In this document: positions 1 through 31,430 of the stretch, piece by piece | Layout: each line of letters starts with the position of its first letter | How positions within the stretch are numbered: position 1 is the stretch's first letter | Sequence record: PZ168832.1 | Length of the DNA: 64,000 nt | Source of the DNA: a phage | Strand: one strand, 5' to 3' | The notes under the pieces: model-generated | Databases searched by the model: none | The model's input: the letters and a program-made list of their open reading frames with translations, nothing else | Told to the model about the DNA's origin: nothing | Made by a program: the position numbers and the translations under genes

Positions 1-354
1 ATTATTAGAACTCATTGATGTAAAGATTTCTGCACCAGAACGGTTTTCACCAATCAGGTTAATAAAGCCGCCAGTTGAACGAGGCTGAACGAAAGTGAAA
101 CGTTGCATCCACGGAGTGCGGTTGGCACCTTTCCCTGTGAATCCTTGAATCTGAATATTCAGGCCTTCTTGCTCGTTCACACCGATGTAAGTGGTAATTG
201 TTGCGCCAGTCGTCGCTGCGGTCTTGCCGTCCATCGCTTCGCAATCGTAAACAGCGATTGAATCGGAAGTACGGACAGCGGCTTCAGTCGCTTCCATATA
301 CATGGTTCCGAGAATAGCAGTTGCGGCAAGCGCGATTCCAGTGATGCGTTTCAT
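1..354 (-). CDS. Secreted protein, partial (ATG at 354; runs off the window start with no stop)
   Basis: Open frame read by hand from ATG 354..352 to position 1 (118 codons, not in the ORF track because it lacks a stop). N-terminus MKRITGIALAATAILGTMYMEA is signal-peptide-like. Confidence 0.45.
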   Translation of the reverse strand, partial: MKRITGIALAATAILGTMYMEATEAAVRTSDSIAVYDCEAMDGKTAATTGATITTYIGVNEQEGLNIQIQGFTGKGANRTPWMQRFTFVQPRSTGGFINLIGENRSGAEIFTSMSSNN

Positions 355-419
355 TTTCGTTTCCTCTATGATTTCTGCTTCAATGATTAAAGTATACGCC
401 CATTGAAGCAGAAAGCAAA

Positions 420-1415
420 TTATTTATTAGCAATATAAGCAAATTTTTGATAGTTATTTGCTTTGATGAGTTTTTCAACTTCAACAAGGTCATGAGCTAC
501 GTCATCAAGCAAGATGTTGCGCCATGTAGCGAATCGGCCAACACTGAATACGTTCAAATCCATAGTCAGCTGGAGCAGTAAGGCGTGTCGCAAGTCTTTC
601 GGAATGTCGACAATCTTGCCATATTTCTGGTCGACCTTTTCAACTTCTTCAAGAGCAATGTCACTCCATGAGAGGCCAAAGGCTGTCAATACTTCGTCAA
701 CTTCTGCACGCAACTTAATGTCACGGTAACGAGTGATGCCGCCAGCGGCTTCAATTGCGGCTTCACTTACGCTAACCAAAGGAATTGTTTCAATGATCAA
801 TGTGTCGCCAGTGATTGATGCGCGGTAAGTTCTGACGGAGTAGTCAGGAAAGTAAATGGTTTGATACAGTTCACACTTGCGTTTAATCTTAAAGCGGTAA
901 ACACGAATGTTTGCCTTGTCGAATGAGAAATCAATCTTTTGATCAATCCCAGCAAGCTTCATTATGACTGGCAGCGGCGATGTGTTGATGATTGGCGTCT
1001 CGCTATAGCCGCAAAGAGTATCAACAGGAGTATTAAAGAATATGCGGTCACCCAGTTTGTCGACAAGCTGATCATAAAAGTCATCAGGCGCAATATAACG
1101 CGTTGCAGTTTTAAGCTTCATGATTGAACGGCTGCCAAACTGATTGGTGACCTTCATGGAATACATGTTGGCAAGGTTGATTGGGCAATGGTCGTGGTAG
1201 TAGTTGCCGCGAAAATACACAGCCTTGTCAACTGTCACTGCCTTAAAAGGGATTCCGGTAATACGGCTTACTTCTTCGCCGCGAAAGCGTAGCAGCGCCT
1301 TGTGCTGTGGCGCTCGCTCCCCTGCTTCGTACACAATAGAGTTCGGGAAGTGACACGCGGTAATAAGTCCTGCCAAACCGCCGCCGATAATCATTACAGG
1401 TTGTTTCATGTTCAT
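420..1415 (-). CDS. FAD/NAD(P)-binding oxidoreductase, UDP-galactopyranose-mutase / amine-oxidase-like
   Basis: N-terminal dinucleotide-binding motif MIIGGGLAGL (GxGxxG) and C-terminal GRFATWRNILLDDV resembling the GR..Y..MD flavoenzyme motif. ATG at 1415 and 1409; AAGGA RBS is better spaced for 1409. Confidence 0.6.
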   Translation of the reverse strand: MNMKQPVMIIGGGLAGLITACHFPNSIVYEAGERAPQHKALLRFRGEEVSRITGIPFKAVTVDKAVYFRGNYYHDHCPINLANMYSMKVTNQFGSRSIMKLKTATRYIAPDDFYDQLVDKLGDRIFFNTPVDTLCGYSETPIINTSPLPVIMKLAGIDQKIDFSFDKANIRVYRFKIKRKCELYQTIYFPDYSVRTYRASITGDTLIIETIPLVSVSEAAIEAAGGITRYRDIKLRAEVDEVLTAFGLSWSDIALEEVEKVDQKYGKIVDIPKDLRHALLLQLTMDLNVFSVGRFATWRNILLDDVAHDLVEVEKLIKANNYQKFAYIANK

Positions 1416-1439
1416 TTGTCCTTTGTGGGTGATATGAGA

Positions 1440-1468
1440 AGTATAATAGCTAAATTATTTTACAGCAA
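1440..1468 (-). promoter_or_regulatory. Sigma70-like promoter for the oxidoreductase / secreted-protein unit
   Basis: On minus strand TTGCTG, 17-nt spacer, TATACT, between the upstream terminator and the ATG at 1415. Confidence 0.35.
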
Positions 1469-1494
1469 CAAGTCATTTCTATTTAGTACAGACG

Positions 1495-1521
1495 AAAAAA
1501 GACCCACAACAAGTGTGGGTC
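1495..1521 (-). terminator. Rho-independent terminator after the Lys/Ala/Glu-repeat gene
   Basis: Perfect 8-bp stem GACCCACA/TGTGGGTC with 5-nt loop, followed on the minus strand by TTTTTT. Confidence 0.5.
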
Positions 1522-1549: not shown

Positions 1550-2389
1550 TTATTCCGCTTGATCACCGTCTTCGGCATTGTCGTTGGATTCAACATCGAC
1601 AAACTCGATGTGTCCCATCTCTTCCAGCTTGCTCAGGTAGGAGCGAACGGAAGCGCCAAACAGTTGATCTTTAACTTTCTCGCCCAGCTCATCGATAGAC
1701 TGTGCCACGCCAACTTCGCCTTCTTTGATCGCCGCCAGAACGCGTCCACGGGTGGAATGCTCTTGCGGCTGGCTCAGGCCATTGCCAGTGTAGATGAAGT
1801 GAGTGGCTTTTGCACGACGCTGACCGTTTGCCTTTTTAGCAGCCTTGCGCTCTGCGATAGCTTTGCGACGTTCTTCAGCTTCTTTCTTACGCTGTTCTTT
1901 CTGCTGTTCCGCAGCTTCTTTCGCCGCAATCTTAGCAGCTTCACGCTCTGCCTTGCGTTTCGCCTTGGCTTCTTCTTTGGCCTTCTCTTTTTCGGCCTTC
2001 GCTGCAGCACGGGCTTGATCACGCTCTGCTTTCTTAGCAGCAGCCTGCTCTGCTTTCAGGCGCTTGGCTTCTTCTTTAGCCTTTGCCTTTTCGATTTCTT
2101 TTGCTGCTTTAGCGGCTTCACGCTCTGCTTTCTTAGCAGCAGCCTTTTCTGCACGCTCTTTAGCTTTCTTAGCTGCTTCTTCAGCACGCTTCTGAGCCTT
2201 CTCATCAGCAGCCTGTTTGCGCTTCAGCGCGGCTTCTTCACGCTTGGCTTGTTTTTCCTGCTCACGCTTCTGGCGTTTTTCTTCGGCTTCTTTCTTTTTA
2301 GCCAGGCGTTTTTCTTCAGCCACGCGACGACGTTCTGCTGCGGCTGCTTGTTTTTCTTCTTTAGATAATACTTTGATTGCTTCGGCCAT
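1550..2389 (-). CDS. Lys/Ala/Glu-rich low-complexity protein with a C-terminal globular domain (histone-H1-like / nucleoid-associated candidate)
   Basis: About 200 aa of KAE repeats (AEKAAAKKAEREAAKAAKE...), then a roughly 80-aa non-repetitive C-terminal region. ORF-track start at 2395 is GTG; ATG at 2389 has an AAGGA RBS 8 nt upstream. Confidence 0.6.
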   Translation of the reverse strand: MAEAIKVLSKEEKQAAAAERRRVAEEKRLAKKKEAEEKRQKREQEKQAKREEAALKRKQAADEKAQKRAEEAAKKAKERAEKAAAKKAEREAAKAAKEIEKAKAKEEAKRLKAEQAAAKKAERDQARAAAKAEKEKAKEEAKAKRKAEREAAKIAAKEAAEQQKEQRKKEAEERRKAIAERKAAKKANGQRRAKATHFIYTGNGLSQPQEHSTRGRVLAAIKEGEVGVAQSIDELGEKVKDQLFGASVRSYLSKLEEMGHIEFVDVESNDNAEDGDQAE

Positions 2390-2548
2390 ATTCACAGTCC
2401 TTAAATAAATTAGTTTATTTTATATTCCCCGTTTGGGATAACTTAATTATGCCTTCAGTCGCCGCCAGTAGCAACTAAAAACTATGGCGGCAATGCCACT
2501 TTAATTAAACTGATTTTCAGTTTTATTTTTCGTAAATTTACGTCAACA

Positions 2549-28201: not shown

Positions 28202-30577
28202 ATGAAAATTCTTGGCATAAAACTCTGGGAGAAGACGCAACCAGAAGCCGAACCAGCGGAGATGCCGCCAGGCGACCCATTGGCACCGTTTGAACGCCTT
28301 GAAAGGCGCGGCAGCGGTCAACGCTGGGAAAAGACTGAAAGCAATCGACCGACCTTTAAAACGGTTGATGACTTCCCTTTATATGAGCCTGATATTAATG
28401 GCGATGGTGTTGCAATCATAAAAGGTCGTTCAGTCGATTCCGCAACAGTATCCAAAAAGGTTATGGATAATGCCTTAAAGAACATCAGTTCAGAAGGGCA
28501 AGTCAACCCATACACAGTACCTATTCAACTTCAAAACTGGTATTTGTCACAGTCATTTATCGGCTATCAAGCTTGTGCCATCATCGCACAGCATTGGCTG
28601 GTGAACAAGGCTTGCTCTATGGTAGGCCGTGATGCAGTGCGTAAAGGTTGGGAAGTAAAATCAAGCTCTGAATCAGAATTGTCTGTGCAGGCCAGCGAAC
28701 GCTTAAAGCAAATTGATAAAGAATTTAATATCAAAGAGCACTTAGTTGAAGCCGAACGATTCAAAAATATTTTTGGTATCCGCGTCATCATATTTGATGT
28801 GCGTAGCGATGATCCAGAATACTACAGCAAACCTTTTAACATTGATGGTGTGACAAAGGGGTCTTATAAGGGAATCATTCAGGTTGACCCTTATTGGATG
28901 ATGCCATTTTTGACGTCTGAAAACACCGCCGACCCTGCATCACAGCACTTCTATGATCCAGAATACTGGGTGATCAGCGGACAACGTTATCATCGAAGCC
29001 ACCTGATCATTTTGCGAAACGATGAGCCAGCTGATATTCTCAAGCCGACTTATATTTACGGCGGCATCCCTCTGACTCAGCAGATTTATGAACGCATCTA
29101 TGCCGCTGAACGTACCGCTAACGAAGCGCCATTGCTGGCGATGTCCAAGCGTACAACCACGCTGCGGACCGACGTTGACAAGGCGATTGCCAATGAGCGG
29201 TCTTTTGCTGAACGTCTGATGATGTGGATTAAGTACCGCGACAACTATGCAGTCAAAGTGCTTGGTCAAAAAGAAGAGATGGACCAGTTCGACATCAACT
29301 TGTCAGACTTCGACAGCATCATCATGAACCAGTACCAGCTGGTGGCCGCAATCGCAAAAGTTCCGTCGACCAAACTTCTTGGGACTTCGCCAAAAGGCTT
29401 TAACGCCACTGGTGAATTTGAGATGGTCAGCTATCACGAAGAGTTGGAAACGTGCCAGCAGCATGACCTGACAAAAATTCTCGACCGCCATTACAAAATC
29501 CTTCTCAAATCAGAAGGGGTGGAAGTCGACGTTAAGGTTGCATGGGAACCAGTTGGCTCACTTACTGCTACTCAACTTGCAGAAATCAACGACAAGCGAG
29601 CTAACACTGGCAAAACTCTCATTGATGCTGGCGTCATTTCTCCTGATGAAGAGCGCGACCGCATCAAAGACGACAAAAACAGCGGCTACAACCGTCTGCC
29701 GGAAGACGCAGCAGAAGAAACCCCAGGGATGTCTCCAGAGAATATGGCATTGCTTGGCAAGTCTGCTGGTGAAGTCCTGCAAGGTAAGGCCGATATTGAA
29801 CAGGCGAAAGTTGATGTCGTTAAGATGGGCGGCCAGTTCTATAGCGAAACAGGTATTATGCCAGAGGGTGCCGCGCGTGGTGAGTTGGCGGAAAACCCTG
29901 ACAAAGCGCCTGTCGAAATCAACATGGACGATACCGATGATGAATCAAGCCATCAGGTTGATGTCCTAACGCAGTTGAAAGAAGGGCTGGAGGGTATTGC
30001 GGATTACTACCTGAAAGAAGGTCAGGATGTGGATTTTGACCCTCAAAAAGATTCACGGTCGGTGCAACCGTCTACCCTTCCAAGCGTTAAAGGACACGTC
30101 GTCAACTTACGCCACAACGTGGGTAAAATGGACGCAGCATCATTACCTAAGATGAAGTTGCACGGAATGATTCTTGGCATTGAGAATCCGCGAAACAGCA
30201 TTCGTAGAGGAAACAGCCTTGACGGTGAATGGGCCGTGAAGATGCCGCACCACTACGGATTCATCAAGGGCACCAAGGGCGCAGACGGTGATGAAGTCGA
30301 CTGCTTTGTGGGTCCAAATCTGAAGTCGCCGAAAGTCTTTATCGTGAACCAAAACGATAACTACTCTGGCGAGTTTGATGAACACAAGTGTATGCTTGGA
30401 TTCGATTCAGCAGAAGAAGCGAAAGAAGCTTATCAAGCATCATTTGGTAACGGTTGGAACGGATTCGACTCAATCCACGAATTAGATGTGAACTCATTCA
30501 AGGAGTGGTTGAAGGGTGATTGCTCTCAAGCATACGGAGCACTCAATAATCCTACTAATTCACCGAAGCAAGGTTGA
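28202..30577 (+). CDS. Portal protein with an unassigned C-terminal extension (tentative)
   Basis: Position directly after terminase and before a Mu-F-like head morphogenesis gene; AGGTGG RBS then ATG at 28202; about 790 aa, larger than typical portals. Confidence 0.6.
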   Translation: MKILGIKLWEKTQPEAEPAEMPPGDPLAPFERLERRGSGQRWEKTESNRPTFKTVDDFPLYEPDINGDGVAIIKGRSVDSATVSKKVMDNALKNISSEGQVNPYTVPIQLQNWYLSQSFIGYQACAIIAQHWLVNKACSMVGRDAVRKGWEVKSSSESELSVQASERLKQIDKEFNIKEHLVEAERFKNIFGIRVIIFDVRSDDPEYYSKPFNIDGVTKGSYKGIIQVDPYWMMPFLTSENTADPASQHFYDPEYWVISGQRYHRSHLIILRNDEPADILKPTYIYGGIPLTQQIYERIYAAERTANEAPLLAMSKRTTTLRTDVDKAIANERSFAERLMMWIKYRDNYAVKVLGQKEEMDQFDINLSDFDSIIMNQYQLVAAIAKVPSTKLLGTSPKGFNATGEFEMVSYHEELETCQQHDLTKILDRHYKILLKSEGVEVDVKVAWEPVGSLTATQLAEINDKRANTGKTLIDAGVISPDEERDRIKDDKNSGYNRLPEDAAEETPGMSPENMALLGKSAGEVLQGKADIEQAKVDVVKMGGQFYSETGIMPEGAARGELAENPDKAPVEINMDDTDDESSHQVDVLTQLKEGLEGIADYYLKEGQDVDFDPQKDSRSVQPSTLPSVKGHVVNLRHNVGKMDAASLPKMKLHGMILGIENPRNSIRRGNSLDGEWAVKMPHHYGFIKGTKGADGDEVDCFVGPNLKSPKVFIVNQNDNYSGEFDEHKCMLGFDSAEEAKEAYQASFGNGWNGFDSIHELDVNSFKEWLKGDCSQAYGALNNPTNSPKQG

Positions 30578-30578
30578 T

Positions 30579-31430
30579 ATGGCTTTTAAAGCTTCGAAAA
30601 AACGTGAACGCCGCTCACCCGATAGAATCGGACGCGGCAGTCCGATAATCCCATCAAACGCTATTGCGATGGCCTACCGTCGTGAGATGAAAGGTCTTTG
30701 CTATGCGATGATTGATGACTATCAGGCAGGCATTTCAGAATGGCTTGACAAGAAGCAGGTGCAGAAGTTTTTTGCGCAAGACTCTGCTGATTCGACATTC
30801 CAGACCCTTATGAAACGGCTGCAACTGAAATGGGCAAAGGCGTTTGCACGTGTTGGGTCGAAGATTGCCGCTGATTTTATCAAATCGGTCGAAAAGGGTG
30901 CCACTTCTGCTACATTCGCAAGCCTTAAGTCCGCAGGCATAGAAGCGCCAAAGGCCACATATAACAAATTCGTTGAGAACACTCTTAGAACAAGCGAGAA
31001 GTTTAACACGACTCTAGTGACTAAGGTCGGCGAGGATATTCACAACAGGGTGTACGAAGCGGTGATGCTTTCGCTGACTTCGCCAGACCCAGCACAGCAA
31101 GGCGCATCCGGCATTCAGGCGGCATTAAGAAATGTCAAACACTTCTCTGCAAAACGCGTAGACCTTATCGCCAAAGACCAAACGAGCAAACTTTATTGCG
31201 TATTAAGTGATGAAAGGATGCGACAGAATGGCGTGGAGGAATTTGAGTGGGCGCATTCAGGAGCAGGCAAAGAGCCGCGAATATCACATGAGCACGTCGA
31301 CGGCATGAGATTCAAGCTTGATGACAAACGCTTATGGGAAGTAGGTGGAGAACTTAAGTTCAAAAAGGGTGACATCGGTCCTCCTGGATGGGCAATACAC
31401 TGCAAGTGCAGAAAAATACCAATTATCTGA
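30579..31430 (+). CDS. Head morphogenesis protein (Mu gpF / SPP1 gp7-like)
   Basis: C-terminal HEHVDGM ... PPGWAIHCKCRKIPI, characteristic of this family. Confidence 0.7.
   Translation: MAFKASKKRERRSPDRIGRGSPIIPSNAIAMAYRREMKGLCYAMIDDYQAGISEWLDKKQVQKFFAQDSADSTFQTLMKRLQLKWAKAFARVGSKIAADFIKSVEKGATSATFASLKSAGIEAPKATYNKFVENTLRTSEKFNTTLVTKVGEDIHNRVYEAVMLSLTSPDPAQQGASGIQAALRNVKHFSAKRVDLIAKDQTSKLYCVLSDERMRQNGVEEFEWAHSGAGKEPRISHEHVDGMRFKLDDKRLWEVGGELKFKKGDIGPPGWAIHCKCRKIPII

What the first reader, a model, noticed from the sequence alone, without database searches (positions are those of the whole stretch)
1..1468. Moron-like unit: secreted protein plus flavin-binding oxidoreductase under its own promoter
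A signal-peptide protein (truncated by the window edge) and a flavoenzyme with an N-terminal GxGxxG motif and a UDP-galactopyranose-mutase-like C-terminal motif form an independent minus-strand unit. It has its own sigma70-like promoter and is insulated from the upstream gene by a terminator. Such an enzyme in a phage could remodel host surface glycans or modify phage DNA or nucleotides. The exact enzyme family is not secure from motifs alone.
Basis: partly seen in the sequence, partly recalled or inferred. Interest (0 to 1): 0.55.

Follow-up and report, generated by a model that had tools for sequence, protein, structure and literature searches.

The report
Phage flavoenzyme tied to thymidylate synthase
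A conserved, phage-only FAD enzyme distantly related to sugar-ring mutases always sits just upstream of an unusual ThyX thymidylate synthase, so it is a testable candidate for the unexplained thymine DNA hypermodification of this phage group, not an accessory 'moron'.

Summary
The window is a Wifcevirus (E. coli myovirus, 95-98% identical to Bas99, WFC and Mansfield). Both ORFs, the GxGxxG motif, the UGM-like C-terminal motif and the upstream terminator are real. The promoter is only a 9/12 consensus match, no better than chance.

The 'independent moron' reading fails. The flavoprotein belongs to a sharply bounded, virus-only family: 1137 clusters at 50% identity, 362 phage records including Pbunavirus, and only 5 MAG contigs among 185,579 species genomes. 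It is the first gene of a seven-gene block bounded by two terminators: flavoprotein, ORF148, ThyX-like, HAD/PNKP-like, SDR, ORF56, VOC-like. Five of these genes lie outside the window. A ThyX-like gene follows on the same strand in all 62 loci with enough flank, down to 29% identity.

Published work reports sugar-type thymidine hypermodification in Pbunavirus with no genes assigned, and unexplained restriction resistance in Wifcevirus. My best, unproven, explanation is that this operon makes such a modification. ORF148 is a genus-restricted, purifying-selected protein with a signal-peptide-like N-terminus.

The parts
1..354 (-). N-terminal 118 codons of ORF148, a 148-aa protein with a signal-peptide-like N-terminus (MKR + hydrophobic residues 4-17). 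The remaining 30 codons lie outside the window.
   Evidence: Translation. The full 148-aa frame is present in Bas99. It occurs in Wifcevirus only, 29 of 29 records, and forms a single cluster among 5.8 billion proteins. pN/pS is 0.02-0.15. No Pfam, PHROG or NCBIfam hit.
372..414 (-). Intergenic 15-bp perfect hairpin (CUUUCUGCUUCAAUG / CAUUGAAGCAGAAA, 13-nt loop) between the flavoprotein stop and the ORF148 ribosome-binding site. No T-run follows, so it is not an intrinsic terminator. It may be an RNA processing, stability or translational element.
   Evidence: dG -20.3, z -3.9, 0 of 200 shuffles fold as well. 79 of 80 nt are invariant in six Wifcevirus genomes, although synonymous divergence in the adjacent gene is 0.11-0.25.
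420..1415 (-). FAD-type flavoprotein of 331 aa from the first ATG; probable start at 1409, giving 329 aa. It is a member of the phage-specific family phrog_4828 and a remote relative of UDP-galactopyranose mutase.
1454..1481 (-). Weak sigma70-like match (TAGAAA-16-AATAAT) in the 85-nt AT-rich spacer between the terminator and the flavoprotein gene. This is a possible promoter, not an established one.
   Evidence: 9 of 12 matches, and the count of such sites is not above shuffles. The spacer is almost invariant within the genus. The 53%-identity relative L010 has TATAAT in its corresponding spacer, but at a different aligned position.
1501..1521 (-). Intrinsic terminator ending the upstream gene. 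It is the 5' boundary of the flavoprotein-ThyX block.
   Evidence: GACCCACA-CUUGU-UGUGGGUC + U6. dG -20.7, z -5.6. Annotated as a terminator in Mansfield, WFC and WFH.
1550..2395 (-). Upstream neighbour of 281 aa: a Lys/Ala/Glu-rich low-complexity region plus a C-terminal globular domain. Some records call it 'TolA'. It is co-conserved immediately upstream of the flavoprotein gene.
   Evidence: phrog_4765, unknown function. Cluster c3 is found on the same strand, median 161 bp upstream, in 41 of 67 loci with enough flank; family median pI 9.6.

Best explanation
Shown:
- ORF 420..1415 encodes an FAD-binding enzyme of a virus-specific family that is a remote branch of the UGM / protoporphyrinogen-oxidase / amine-oxidase fold class.
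- It is a conserved component of the replication and nucleotide-metabolism module, not a moron.
- It is the first gene of a block bounded by two terminators: flavoprotein, ORF148, ThyX-like, HAD/PNKP-like phosphatase, SDR, ORF56, VOC-like.
- Across the whole family it is always followed by a distinctive ThyX-like gene.

Inferred:
- The flavoprotein and the ThyX-like enzyme work together on pyrimidine deoxynucleotides or on thymine/uracil in DNA.
- Together they build or prepare a C5 sugar-type thymidine hypermodification of the kind recently found in the related Pbunavirus phages F8 and 14-1.
- HAD would remove a phosphate, and SDR and VOC would act as optional tailoring enzymes.
- The same product would explain the unexplained restriction resistance of Wifcevirus.

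Proposed mechanism: by analogy with UGM, reduced flavin N5 attacks the anomeric carbon of a sugar or nucleotide-sugar and forms a flavin-sugar iminium. This would either deliver a furanose or open-chain sugar donor, or pass the carbon unit to C5 of the pyrimidine in the way ThyX passes methylene.

ORF148 is a genus-specific accessory protein, apparently exported, inserted in the variable slot between the two conserved genes.
For: Fold and motifs:
- GxGxxG is invariant.
- The AF2 model has pLDDT 90.3.
- hhalign gives a collinear alignment to fungal UGM over 308 columns, E 1e-4. Y188FP..YR198AS pairs with AfUGM Y317FP..YR327AT, and GR294F..W pairs with GR447F..W.

Conservation:
- 1912 homologues; 1137 clusters at 50% identity, with a sharp E-value boundary.
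- 362 phage records, 292 of them from Pseudomonas phages.
- Only 5 MAG contigs among 185,579 species genomes.

Linkage:
- A ThyX-like gene lies downstream on the same strand in 62 of 62 loci with at least 3 kb of flank, and in all 5 MAG loci at 29-41% identity.
- The same pairing occurs in a 40-kb Vibrio podovirus and a 207-kb Rhizobium phage.
- HAD is present in 51 of those 62 loci by clustering, and the HMM re-scan adds more. SDR is present in 35 and VOC-like in 26.
- Two strong terminators bound the block.

The linked ThyX is atypical:
- It scores below the TIGR02170 cut-off, 80.3 against 87.9 bits.
- T. maritima H53 is Ile in 64 of 64, H79 is Thr/Ser, Y91 is Val/Ala and H178 is Arg, while the dUMP-binding arginines are kept.

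Literature:
- In Pbunavirus F8 and 14-1, about a quarter of thymidines, in TG context, are replaced by nucleosides of 362 and 390 Da, read as tetrose-alcohol and pentose derivatives. No genes were assigned (PMC12191111).
- No glycosyltransferase, base kinase or dioxygenase is annotated elsewhere in the genome.
- A flavoenzyme acting on hypermodified thymidine in DNA has precedent in PaMx11 gp47 (PMC8989533).
Against: - No data show that Wifcevirus DNA is modified.
- The link from this operon to the Pbunavirus modification rests on co-occurrence and exclusion only.
- A TG-specific modification implies a DNA-level enzyme. This protein has no recognisable DNA-binding domain, and its family median pI is only 8.4.
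- F8 is cut by EcoRI, but Wifcevirus is protected from EcoRI and EcoRV, whose sites lack TG. The same chemistry and motif therefore cannot explain both.
- The ThyX-like protein may simply make dTMP, and gene order may reflect shared timing of nucleotide-metabolism genes.
- 14-1 and F8 carry different modifications, yet their flavoproteins are 97% identical.
- UGM similarity is marginal at sequence level: no Pfam GLF hit, and hhalign probability is 58% against fungal UGM and 4.6% against E. coli Glf.
Confidence: 0.45

Rival explanations
1. The flavoprotein is an accessory enzyme for ordinary dTMP synthesis. It would support the phage ThyX, for example by keeping a flavin reduced, supplying or recycling the one-carbon donor, or protecting against oxygen. 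No DNA modification would be involved.
For: The flavoprotein-ThyX gene pair is invariant. It sits among replication genes: Dda helicase, DnaQ exonuclease, Pol III alpha. The linked ThyX keeps all dUMP-binding arginines and hits Pfam Thy1 at 1e-29.
Against: From established knowledge, canonical ThyX enzymes are self-sufficient with NADPH and methylene-tetrahydrofolate, and many ThyX-encoding phages and bacteria have no such partner. The family is absent from cellular genomes that use ThyX. The fold is that of substrate-oxidising or mutase enzymes with tightly bound FAD, not of flavin reductases. This reading also does not explain the co-transcribed SDR and VOC-like genes.
Confidence: 0.2
2. It is a genuine nucleotide-sugar pyranose/furanose mutase (Glf-like) that makes a furanose donor for host surface glycan remodelling.
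For: UGM is the best structural match. The Mansfield record annotates it as UGM from HHpred. R198 and Y188 align to AfUGM R327 and Y317. The E. coli K-12 O16 antigen that Wifcevirus needs contains galactofuranose; glf and wbbI lie in the rfb cluster.
Confidence: 0.07
3. It is an unrelated oxidoreductase, for example an amine or polyamine oxidase, a renalase-like enzyme or an anti-defence enzyme that destroys a small-molecule signal. Its position next to ThyX would reflect only co-regulation in the early/middle operon.
Against: Gene-pair conservation down to 29% identity, across unrelated phage architectures, is hard to explain without functional coupling. The UGM-specific motifs (YFP..YRA, GRF..WR) are invariant.
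Confidence: 0.15
4. It is a two-gene moron: an accessory, horizontally acquired unit with its own promoter and terminator.
For: A terminator lies upstream and a weak promoter-like site follows it. ORF148 is genus-restricted.
Against: The flavoprotein is conserved in every relative examined and is syntenic. No terminator follows ORF148, and the block continues into ThyX 14 nt later. The promoter match is not above chance. Only ORF148 fits an 'accessory insert' description.
Confidence: 0.03

Closest known systems
Eukaryotic-type UDP-galactopyranose mutase (T. cruzi 4DSG; A. fumigatus 3UTE/3UKH)
Protoporphyrinogen oxidase / flavin amine oxidase / phytoene desaturase superfamily
   Different: There is no Amino_oxidase Pfam hit. 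The C-terminal motif is of the UGM type. The protein is much smaller.
PaMx11 gp47, a flavin-dependent lyase acting on glycinyl-thymidine in DNA (thymidine hypermodification pathway; PMC8989533)
   Same: A phage flavoenzyme that works on a C5-substituted thymidine. It shows that FAD enzymes can be part of thymidine hypermodification clusters.
   Different: gp47 is MnmC1/DAO-like, not UGM-like. Its cluster uses a ThyA-type dUMP hydroxymethylase, a 5-hmdU DNA kinase and aGPT-Pplase, none of which is annotated here.
ThyX / TrmFO flavin-N5 iminium carbon transfer
   Same: This is a comparison of how it may work, not of membership. Both UGM and ThyX use reduced flavin N5 as a nucleophile and form an N5-iminium adduct (established knowledge; discussed in PMC8989533). 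The gene is always paired with a ThyX-like gene.
   Different: The fold differs, and no sequence relation to ThyX or TrmFO was found.
Rhizobium phage RL38J1 gp084, a bona fide phage UGM in a DNA-glycosylation gene set (PMC13326640)
   Same: A phage-encoded UGM-fold enzyme placed in the context of glycosylated pyrimidines in DNA.

Membership tests
UDP-galactopyranose mutase (Glf/UGM, EC 5.4.99.9) | N-terminal beta-alpha-beta FAD-binding fold with GxGxxG and an acidic residue ending strand 2 | tested here: met
   IIG11GG13LAG16 and E30. G11, G13 and G16 are invariant and E30 is at least 90% conserved in 120 sequences. They are kept in Pbunavirus, Vibrio and Rhizobium phage members.
UDP-galactopyranose mutase (Glf/UGM, EC 5.4.99.9) | Membership by curated sequence models (Pfam GLF PF03275, NCBIfam) or significant sequence similarity to solved UGMs | tested here: not met
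   No Pfam hit at E<1 for the window protein, and no GLF hit in 28 members. No NCBIfam hit. phmmer and hmmsearch against PDB sequences find no UGM. hhalign gives 4.6% probability against E. coli Glf and 58% against a fungal UGM alignment.
UDP-galactopyranose mutase (Glf/UGM, EC 5.4.99.9) | Overall fold closest to UGM | tested here: met
UDP-galactopyranose mutase (Glf/UGM, EC 5.4.99.9) | Catalytic and diphosphate-binding Arg in the YFP..YRA segment (AfUGM R327) and Arg of the C-terminal GRF motif (AfUGM R447) | tested here: met
   R198 and R294 are invariant and align to R327 and R447. Residue roles come from established knowledge; R327A, R182K, Y317A and H63A mutant structures are listed.
UDP-galactopyranose mutase (Glf/UGM, EC 5.4.99.9) | Diphosphate-binding tyrosines (AfUGM Y419, Y453) and sugar-pocket Trp (W315) | tested here: not met
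   Y453 aligns to N300, which is at least 90% conserved. W315 aligns to invariant T186. Y419 aligns to V269, with Y265 nearby, so its placement is uncertain. These are sequence alignments only. No structural superposition at residue level was possible.
UDP-galactopyranose mutase (Glf/UGM, EC 5.4.99.9) | Five-helix domain 2 carrying the mobile-flap Arg that closes over the UDP (AfUGM R182) | tested here: inconclusive
   The AF2 model shows only two helices (79-90 and 113-124) where domain 2 should be. The protein is 331 aa against 367-510. Model coordinates could not be inspected.
UDP-galactopyranose mutase (Glf/UGM, EC 5.4.99.9) | Genomic association with furanosyltransferase or glycan genes | tested here: not met
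   The neighbours are ThyX-like, HAD, SDR, VOC-like, DnaQ and Pol III. No glycosyltransferase is annotated in Bas99 or Mansfield.
UDP-galactopyranose mutase (Glf/UGM, EC 5.4.99.9) | Pyranose/furanose mutase activity with reduced FAD | not testable with these tools
   This needs a biochemical assay.
Moron (autonomous accessory transcription unit) | Sporadic distribution among related phages, with its own promoter and its own terminator | tested here: not met
   The flavoprotein is present and syntenic in all relatives examined. The promoter match is not above chance. No terminator follows ORF148, and the next one is five genes downstream. Only ORF148 is genus-restricted.
Canonical flavin-dependent thymidylate synthase ThyX (the linked gene, outside the window) | ThyX motif RHRxxSxxxxSxR(Y) and a score above the TIGR02170 equivalog cut-off | tested here: not met
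   The motif is R-T/S-R...T/S-x-R-V/A. T. maritima H53 is Ile in 64 of 64 and H178 is Arg. R78, R80, R90, R147, R165 and R174 are kept. TIGR02170 scores 80.3 against a cut-off of 87.9, while Pfam Thy1 is passed at 1.2e-29.
Known thymidine hypermodification clusters (ThyA-type dUMP hydroxymethylase + 5-hmdU DNA kinase + aGPT-Pplase) | Presence of those three gene types | tested here: not met
   None is annotated in Bas99 or Mansfield. Not every hypothetical protein was profiled, so a hidden member cannot be excluded.
Sec signal peptide (ORF148) | Positive n-region, hydrophobic h-region of 10-15 residues, small residues at -3/-1 of a cleavage site | tested here: inconclusive
   K2-R3 is followed by a hydrophobic stretch at residues 4-17 (Kyte-Doolittle about 2.0). 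Plausible cleavage sites are ILG|T or MEA|T, read by eye. No dedicated predictor was available.

The most novel reading that the evidence does not exclude
The UGM-like flavoprotein and the atypical ThyX-like enzyme form a previously unrecognised two-enzyme route to sugar-substituted thymidine. A flavin-N5 sugar iminium (UGM chemistry) would be coupled to C5 alkylation of a uracil or thymine nucleotide or DNA base (ThyX chemistry). HAD, SDR and VOC-like proteins would tailor the product.

This route would bypass the known dUMP-hydroxymethylase / DNA-kinase / transferase pathway. It would account for the 362 and 390 Da thymidine derivatives of Pbunavirus and for the unexplained restriction resistance of Wifcevirus. 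Both masses equal dU + aldose - H2O, with or without 2 H, just as well as 5-hmdU + a sugar one carbon shorter - H2O.
Probability: 0.25. Interest if true: 0.85.

Novelty: new variant of a known kind. Interest (0 to 1): 0.62.

Why it matters
[quoted passage not shown] A 2025 preprint reported that their DNA carries sugar-type hypermodified thymidine, with no biosynthetic genes identified. The BASEL study reported that Wifcevirus resists most tested restriction systems with no known protection mechanism.

This analysis points to a conserved, virus-only gene pair: a UGM-like flavoprotein plus an atypical ThyX, inside a terminator-bounded operon. That gives a concrete candidate that gene deletion and nucleoside mass spectrometry can test directly.

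If the hypothesis is right, it would add a new enzymatic logic for DNA hypermodification and a genomic marker for predicting modified genomes. More than 1000 protein clusters carry the family. If it is wrong, the strict pairing with ThyX still marks an uncharacterised partner of flavin-dependent thymidylate synthesis.

Tried and rejected
- Single-sequence AlphaFold gave an unusable model, pLDDT 33. It was repeated with a 120-sequence alignment.
- The afdb50 fold library was not available.
- phmmer and profile searches against PDB sequences found no relative of the flavoprotein, of the HAD protein or of the VOC-like protein.
- hhalign against a single E. coli Glf sequence was uninformative, 4.6% probability.
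- The fungal UGM set from the large database was too narrow, at least 81% identity, to build a deep profile.
- The BFVD viral fold search returned only uncharacterised members of the same family.
- BLAST clustering seemed to show nine loci without ThyX. An HMM re-scan showed that this was an artefact of ORF picking.
- I tested whether a TG-specific thymine modification explains the Wifcevirus restriction pattern. It fits EcoCFT_II (CACAG; my own recollection of the site, supported by the count of 87 in the window) against EcoP1 (AGACC). It does not fit the protection from EcoRI and EcoRV.
- I compared 14-1 with F8, which carry different modifications. The HAD gene is the most divergent at 79%, but much of this is a linker repeat, so I do not count it as evidence.
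- Literature searches found no paper that assigns a function to this family or names the Pbunavirus modification genes.
Full report
**Identity of the window.** Bases 1-2500 match 29 phage records at 90-98% identity. All are Wifcevirus myoviruses of E. coli and Shigella: Bas99, WFC, Mansfield and others. The other end of the window covers the Pol III alpha and exonuclease genes of the same genomes. The window is therefore about 64 kb of a roughly 68-kb circularly permuted map. The roughly 4 kb that is missing lies immediately 'downstream' (minus strand) of position 1.

**Check of the observation.**
- The minus strand carries an ORF at 420..1415 of 331 aa. The better start is the ATG at 1409, because AAGGA lies 9 nt upstream. 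That start agrees with the 329-aa annotation in Bas99 and Mansfield.
- A second minus-strand ORF starts at 354 and runs off the window edge.
- The first protein has IIGGGLAG at residues 9-16 and GRFATWRN near its C-terminus.
- The second protein begins MKRITGIALAATAILGTMYMEA. In Bas99 the frame continues to a stop after 148 codons, so it is not interrupted.
- The terminator at 1521..1501 is a clean 8-bp GC-rich hairpin followed by T6, with dG -20.7 kcal/mol and z -5.6.
- The claimed promoter is weak. The best minus-strand match is TAGAAA-16-AATAAT, 9 of 12. The number of such matches in the region equals what shuffled sequence gives. The perfect TATAAT at 1442-1447 is on the wrong strand.

**What the flavoprotein is.**
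- It matches phrog_4828 (unknown function) over its full length at E 7e-148.
- It matches nothing in Pfam at E<1, nothing in NCBIfam, and nothing among PDB sequences.
- Sixteen of 28 homologues give sub-threshold NAD_binding_8 hits.
- A 120-sequence alignment shows invariant G11, G13 and G16, plus many invariant basic residues: R43, R45, K64, K88, R106, R198, K267 and R294.
- With that alignment AlphaFold gives a confident model, pLDDT 90.3 and pTM 0.87.
- Foldseek against the PDB ranks eukaryotic-type UDP-galactopyranose mutases first: 4dsg at E 1.5e-10 and TMq 0.67.
- A low-stringency hhalign against a fungal UGM alignment gives one collinear alignment over 308 columns, E 1e-4 and probability 58%. 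It pairs Y188-F-P-x6-Y-R198-A-S-I with AfUGM Y317-F-P-x6-Y-R327-A-T-I. It pairs G-R294-F-A-T-W-R-N300 with G-R447-F-G-S-W-R-Y453 (AfUGM sequence verified).
- So part of the UGM active-site scaffold is kept: the equivalents of Y317, R327 and R447.
- Other parts are lost. Y453 is Asn and W315 is Thr.
- The model has only two helices where UGM has its five-helix uridine-binding domain.
- My conclusion is that this is a remote, distinct branch of the UGM-like flavoenzymes, not a Glf orthologue.

**Distribution.**
- The family has 1912 homologues in the large protein collection, many on 66-73 kb phage contigs.
- It forms 1137 clusters at 50% identity, of which 1006 score below 1e-10. The family edge is therefore sharp.
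- It is encoded in 362 phage records. Of these, 292 are Pseudomonas phages (Pbunavirus), and the rest infect Serratia, Pantoea, Xanthomonas, Xylella, Burkholderia, Rhizobium and Vibrio.
- In one genome for each of 185,579 bacterial and archaeal species it appears only five times, always on MAG contigs with phage-like gene order.
- It is thus a virus-specific gene that is conserved across its phage lineage. That is the opposite of a moron.

**Genomic context.**
- In Bas99 and Mansfield the minus-strand order is: Dda-like helicase, K/A/E-rich protein, terminator, flavoprotein, ORF148, ThyX, HAD/PNKP-like phosphatase, SDR, 56-aa ORF, VOC/glyoxalase-like protein, terminator, DnaQ-like exonuclease, Pol III alpha.
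- The only two strong minus-strand terminators in this stretch flank the seven genes from the flavoprotein to the VOC-like protein.
- Pbunavirus E217 and 14-1 keep helicase, basic protein, flavoprotein, five small ORFs, ThyX, HAD, exonuclease and polymerase.
- A 40-kb Vibrio podovirus has the flavoprotein and ThyX 3 nt apart. A 207-kb Rhizobium phage has them about 2 kb apart, with a HAD gene nearby.
- I clustered ORFs from 85 loci and then re-scanned with HMMs. Every locus with at least 3 kb of downstream sequence (62 of 62) has a ThyX-like gene downstream on the same strand. So do all five MAG loci, at 29-41% identity.
- Among those 62 loci, clustering alone finds HAD in 51, and the HMM re-scan adds more. 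SDR is present in 35 and the VOC-like gene in 26.
- Pairing this strict, across unrelated genome architectures, argues for functional coupling.

**The partner ThyX is unusual.**
- It passes Pfam Thy1 at 1.2e-29.
- It falls below the NCBIfam ThyX equivalog cut-off, 80.3 against 87.9 bits.
- In 64 linked ThyX-like proteins the dUMP- and phosphate-binding arginines and Q75 (T. maritima numbering) are invariant.
- However, H53 is always Ile, H79 is Thr or Ser, Y91 is Val or Ala, and H178 is always Arg.
- The roles of those residues come from my knowledge of the ThyX literature and were not tested here.

**Link to DNA modification, from the literature.**
- Its raw data give, for Bas99: EOP 0.33-0.42 on EcoRI (listed as 38 sites; the window has 19 palindromic sites, so the table presumably counts both strands), about 1 on EcoRV, about 1 on EcoCFT_II (92 sites), and no plaques on EcoP1 (89 sites).
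- A 2025 preprint shows that the related Pbunavirus F8 and 14-1 carry hypermodified thymidine in TG context, replacing about a quarter of T. The nucleoside masses are 362 and 390, interpreted as a tetrose sugar-alcohol derivative and a cyclised aldopentose derivative. No biosynthetic genes were named (PMC12191111).
- Later papers in the library do not name them either.
- In Wifcevirus genomes, the annotated enzymes capable of small-molecule chemistry are this operon and a MazG-like pyrophosphatase. No glycosyltransferase, base kinase or dioxygenase is annotated.
- Flavoenzymes acting on hypermodified thymidine in DNA have precedent in PaMx11 gp47 (PMC8989533).

**Best explanation and its limits.** I infer that the flavoprotein works with the ThyX-like enzyme on pyrimidine nucleotides or DNA bases, as part of a sugar-type thymidine hypermodification pathway. 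HAD would act as a phosphatase. SDR and the VOC-like protein would be optional tailoring enzymes. Both UGM and ThyX use reduced flavin N5 as a covalent nucleophile, which gives a chemically coherent though speculative route. The reported masses fit dU + aldose - H2O (with or without 2 H) as well as they fit 5-hmdU + a shorter sugar - H2O.

The arguments against this are as follows.
- Nothing shows that Wifcevirus DNA is modified.
- A TG-specific modification needs a DNA-level enzyme, and this protein has no evident DNA-binding module.
- The restriction pattern fits only in part. CACAG/CTGTG contains TG and AGACC/GGTCT does not (window counts 87 and 78). But EcoRI and EcoRV sites lack TG and are protected in Wifcevirus, while F8 is cut by EcoRI.
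- 14-1 and F8 differ in their modification, yet their flavoproteins are 97% identical.
- I put this explanation at 0.45. An accessory role in ordinary dTMP synthesis gets 0.2, an unrelated oxidoreductase 0.15, a true Glf for glycans 0.07, and a moron 0.03.

**ORF148.**
- It is found only in Wifcevirus, in 29 of 29 records at 95-100% identity.
- It forms a single cluster among 5.8 billion proteins and has no family hit.
- Synonymous differences far exceed non-synonymous ones, with pN/pS 0.02-0.15, so it is a real gene.
- Its N-terminus has the charge and hydrophobicity pattern of a Sec signal peptide, but no dedicated predictor was available.
- It occupies the slot that holds five unrelated small ORFs in Pbunavirus. 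It is the one part of the finding that does behave like an accessory insert.

**Verdict.** The sequence features are real apart from the promoter. The interpretation as an autonomous moron is wrong. The UGM-like call is right at fold level but not at family level. The interesting result is the strict pairing of a virus-specific UGM-like flavoprotein with an atypical ThyX, inside a terminator-bounded operon, in a phage lineage whose thymine hypermodification has no known genes.

Noticed in passing
window 372-414 (minus strand): A perfect 15-bp hairpin lies between the flavoprotein stop and the ORF148 ribosome-binding site, with no T-run after it. 79 of 80 intergenic nt are invariant in six Wifcevirus genomes, while synonymous sites in the neighbouring gene differ by 11-25%. 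This suggests a constrained RNA or DNA element whose role is unknown.
   Followed up: partly
L002 5088-5894 (Bas99 ThyX, just outside the window) and 64 homologues in L003-L092: The ThyX-like genes linked to this flavoprotein form a subfamily with fixed substitutions at T. maritima H53 (Ile), H79 (Thr/Ser), Y91 (Val/Ala) and H178 (Arg). They score below the NCBIfam ThyX cut-off.
   Followed up: partly
whole window (site counts); BASEL-2 supplementary data: Wifcevirus is fully restricted by EcoP1 (AGACC, 78 sites in the window) but not by EcoCFT_II (CACAG, as I recall it; 87 sites in the window), EcoRI (19 palindromic sites) or EcoRV (5). Only the first contrast fits a TG-specific thymine modification.
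   Followed up: partly
window 1550-2395 (minus strand); the 269-aa ORF at 1559-2368 on the plus strand: The gene upstream of the terminator is a Lys/Ala/Glu-rich low-complexity protein with a C-terminal globular domain. Some records label it 'TolA'. It is co-conserved next to the flavoprotein in most loci, and the family median pI is 9.6. The long plus-strand ORF opposite it is an antisense artefact of the repetitive codons.
   Followed up: partly
L094 (phage 14-1) against L095 (phage F8): Between two Pbunaviruses reported to carry different thymidine modifications, the HAD/PNKP-like gene and the adjacent small ORFs are 78-82% identical, while flanking genes are 94-99%. Part of the HAD difference is an expansion of an acidic EDA repeat in its linker.
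   Followed up: partly
L002 4219-5088 (HAD/PNKP-like protein, outside the window): Only the N-terminal 140 residues or so match a known domain (HAD_PNKP). The conserved C-terminal region of about 120 aa has no Pfam, NCBIfam or PDB sequence match.
   Followed up: no
Bas99 record 30456-31079 (a MazG-like pyrophosphatase gene, inside the window's span but not located in window coordinates): A MazG-like nucleotide pyrophosphatase lies in the same leftward replication gene array. Such enzymes often clear canonical or unwanted dNTPs in phages with modified DNA.
   Followed up: no
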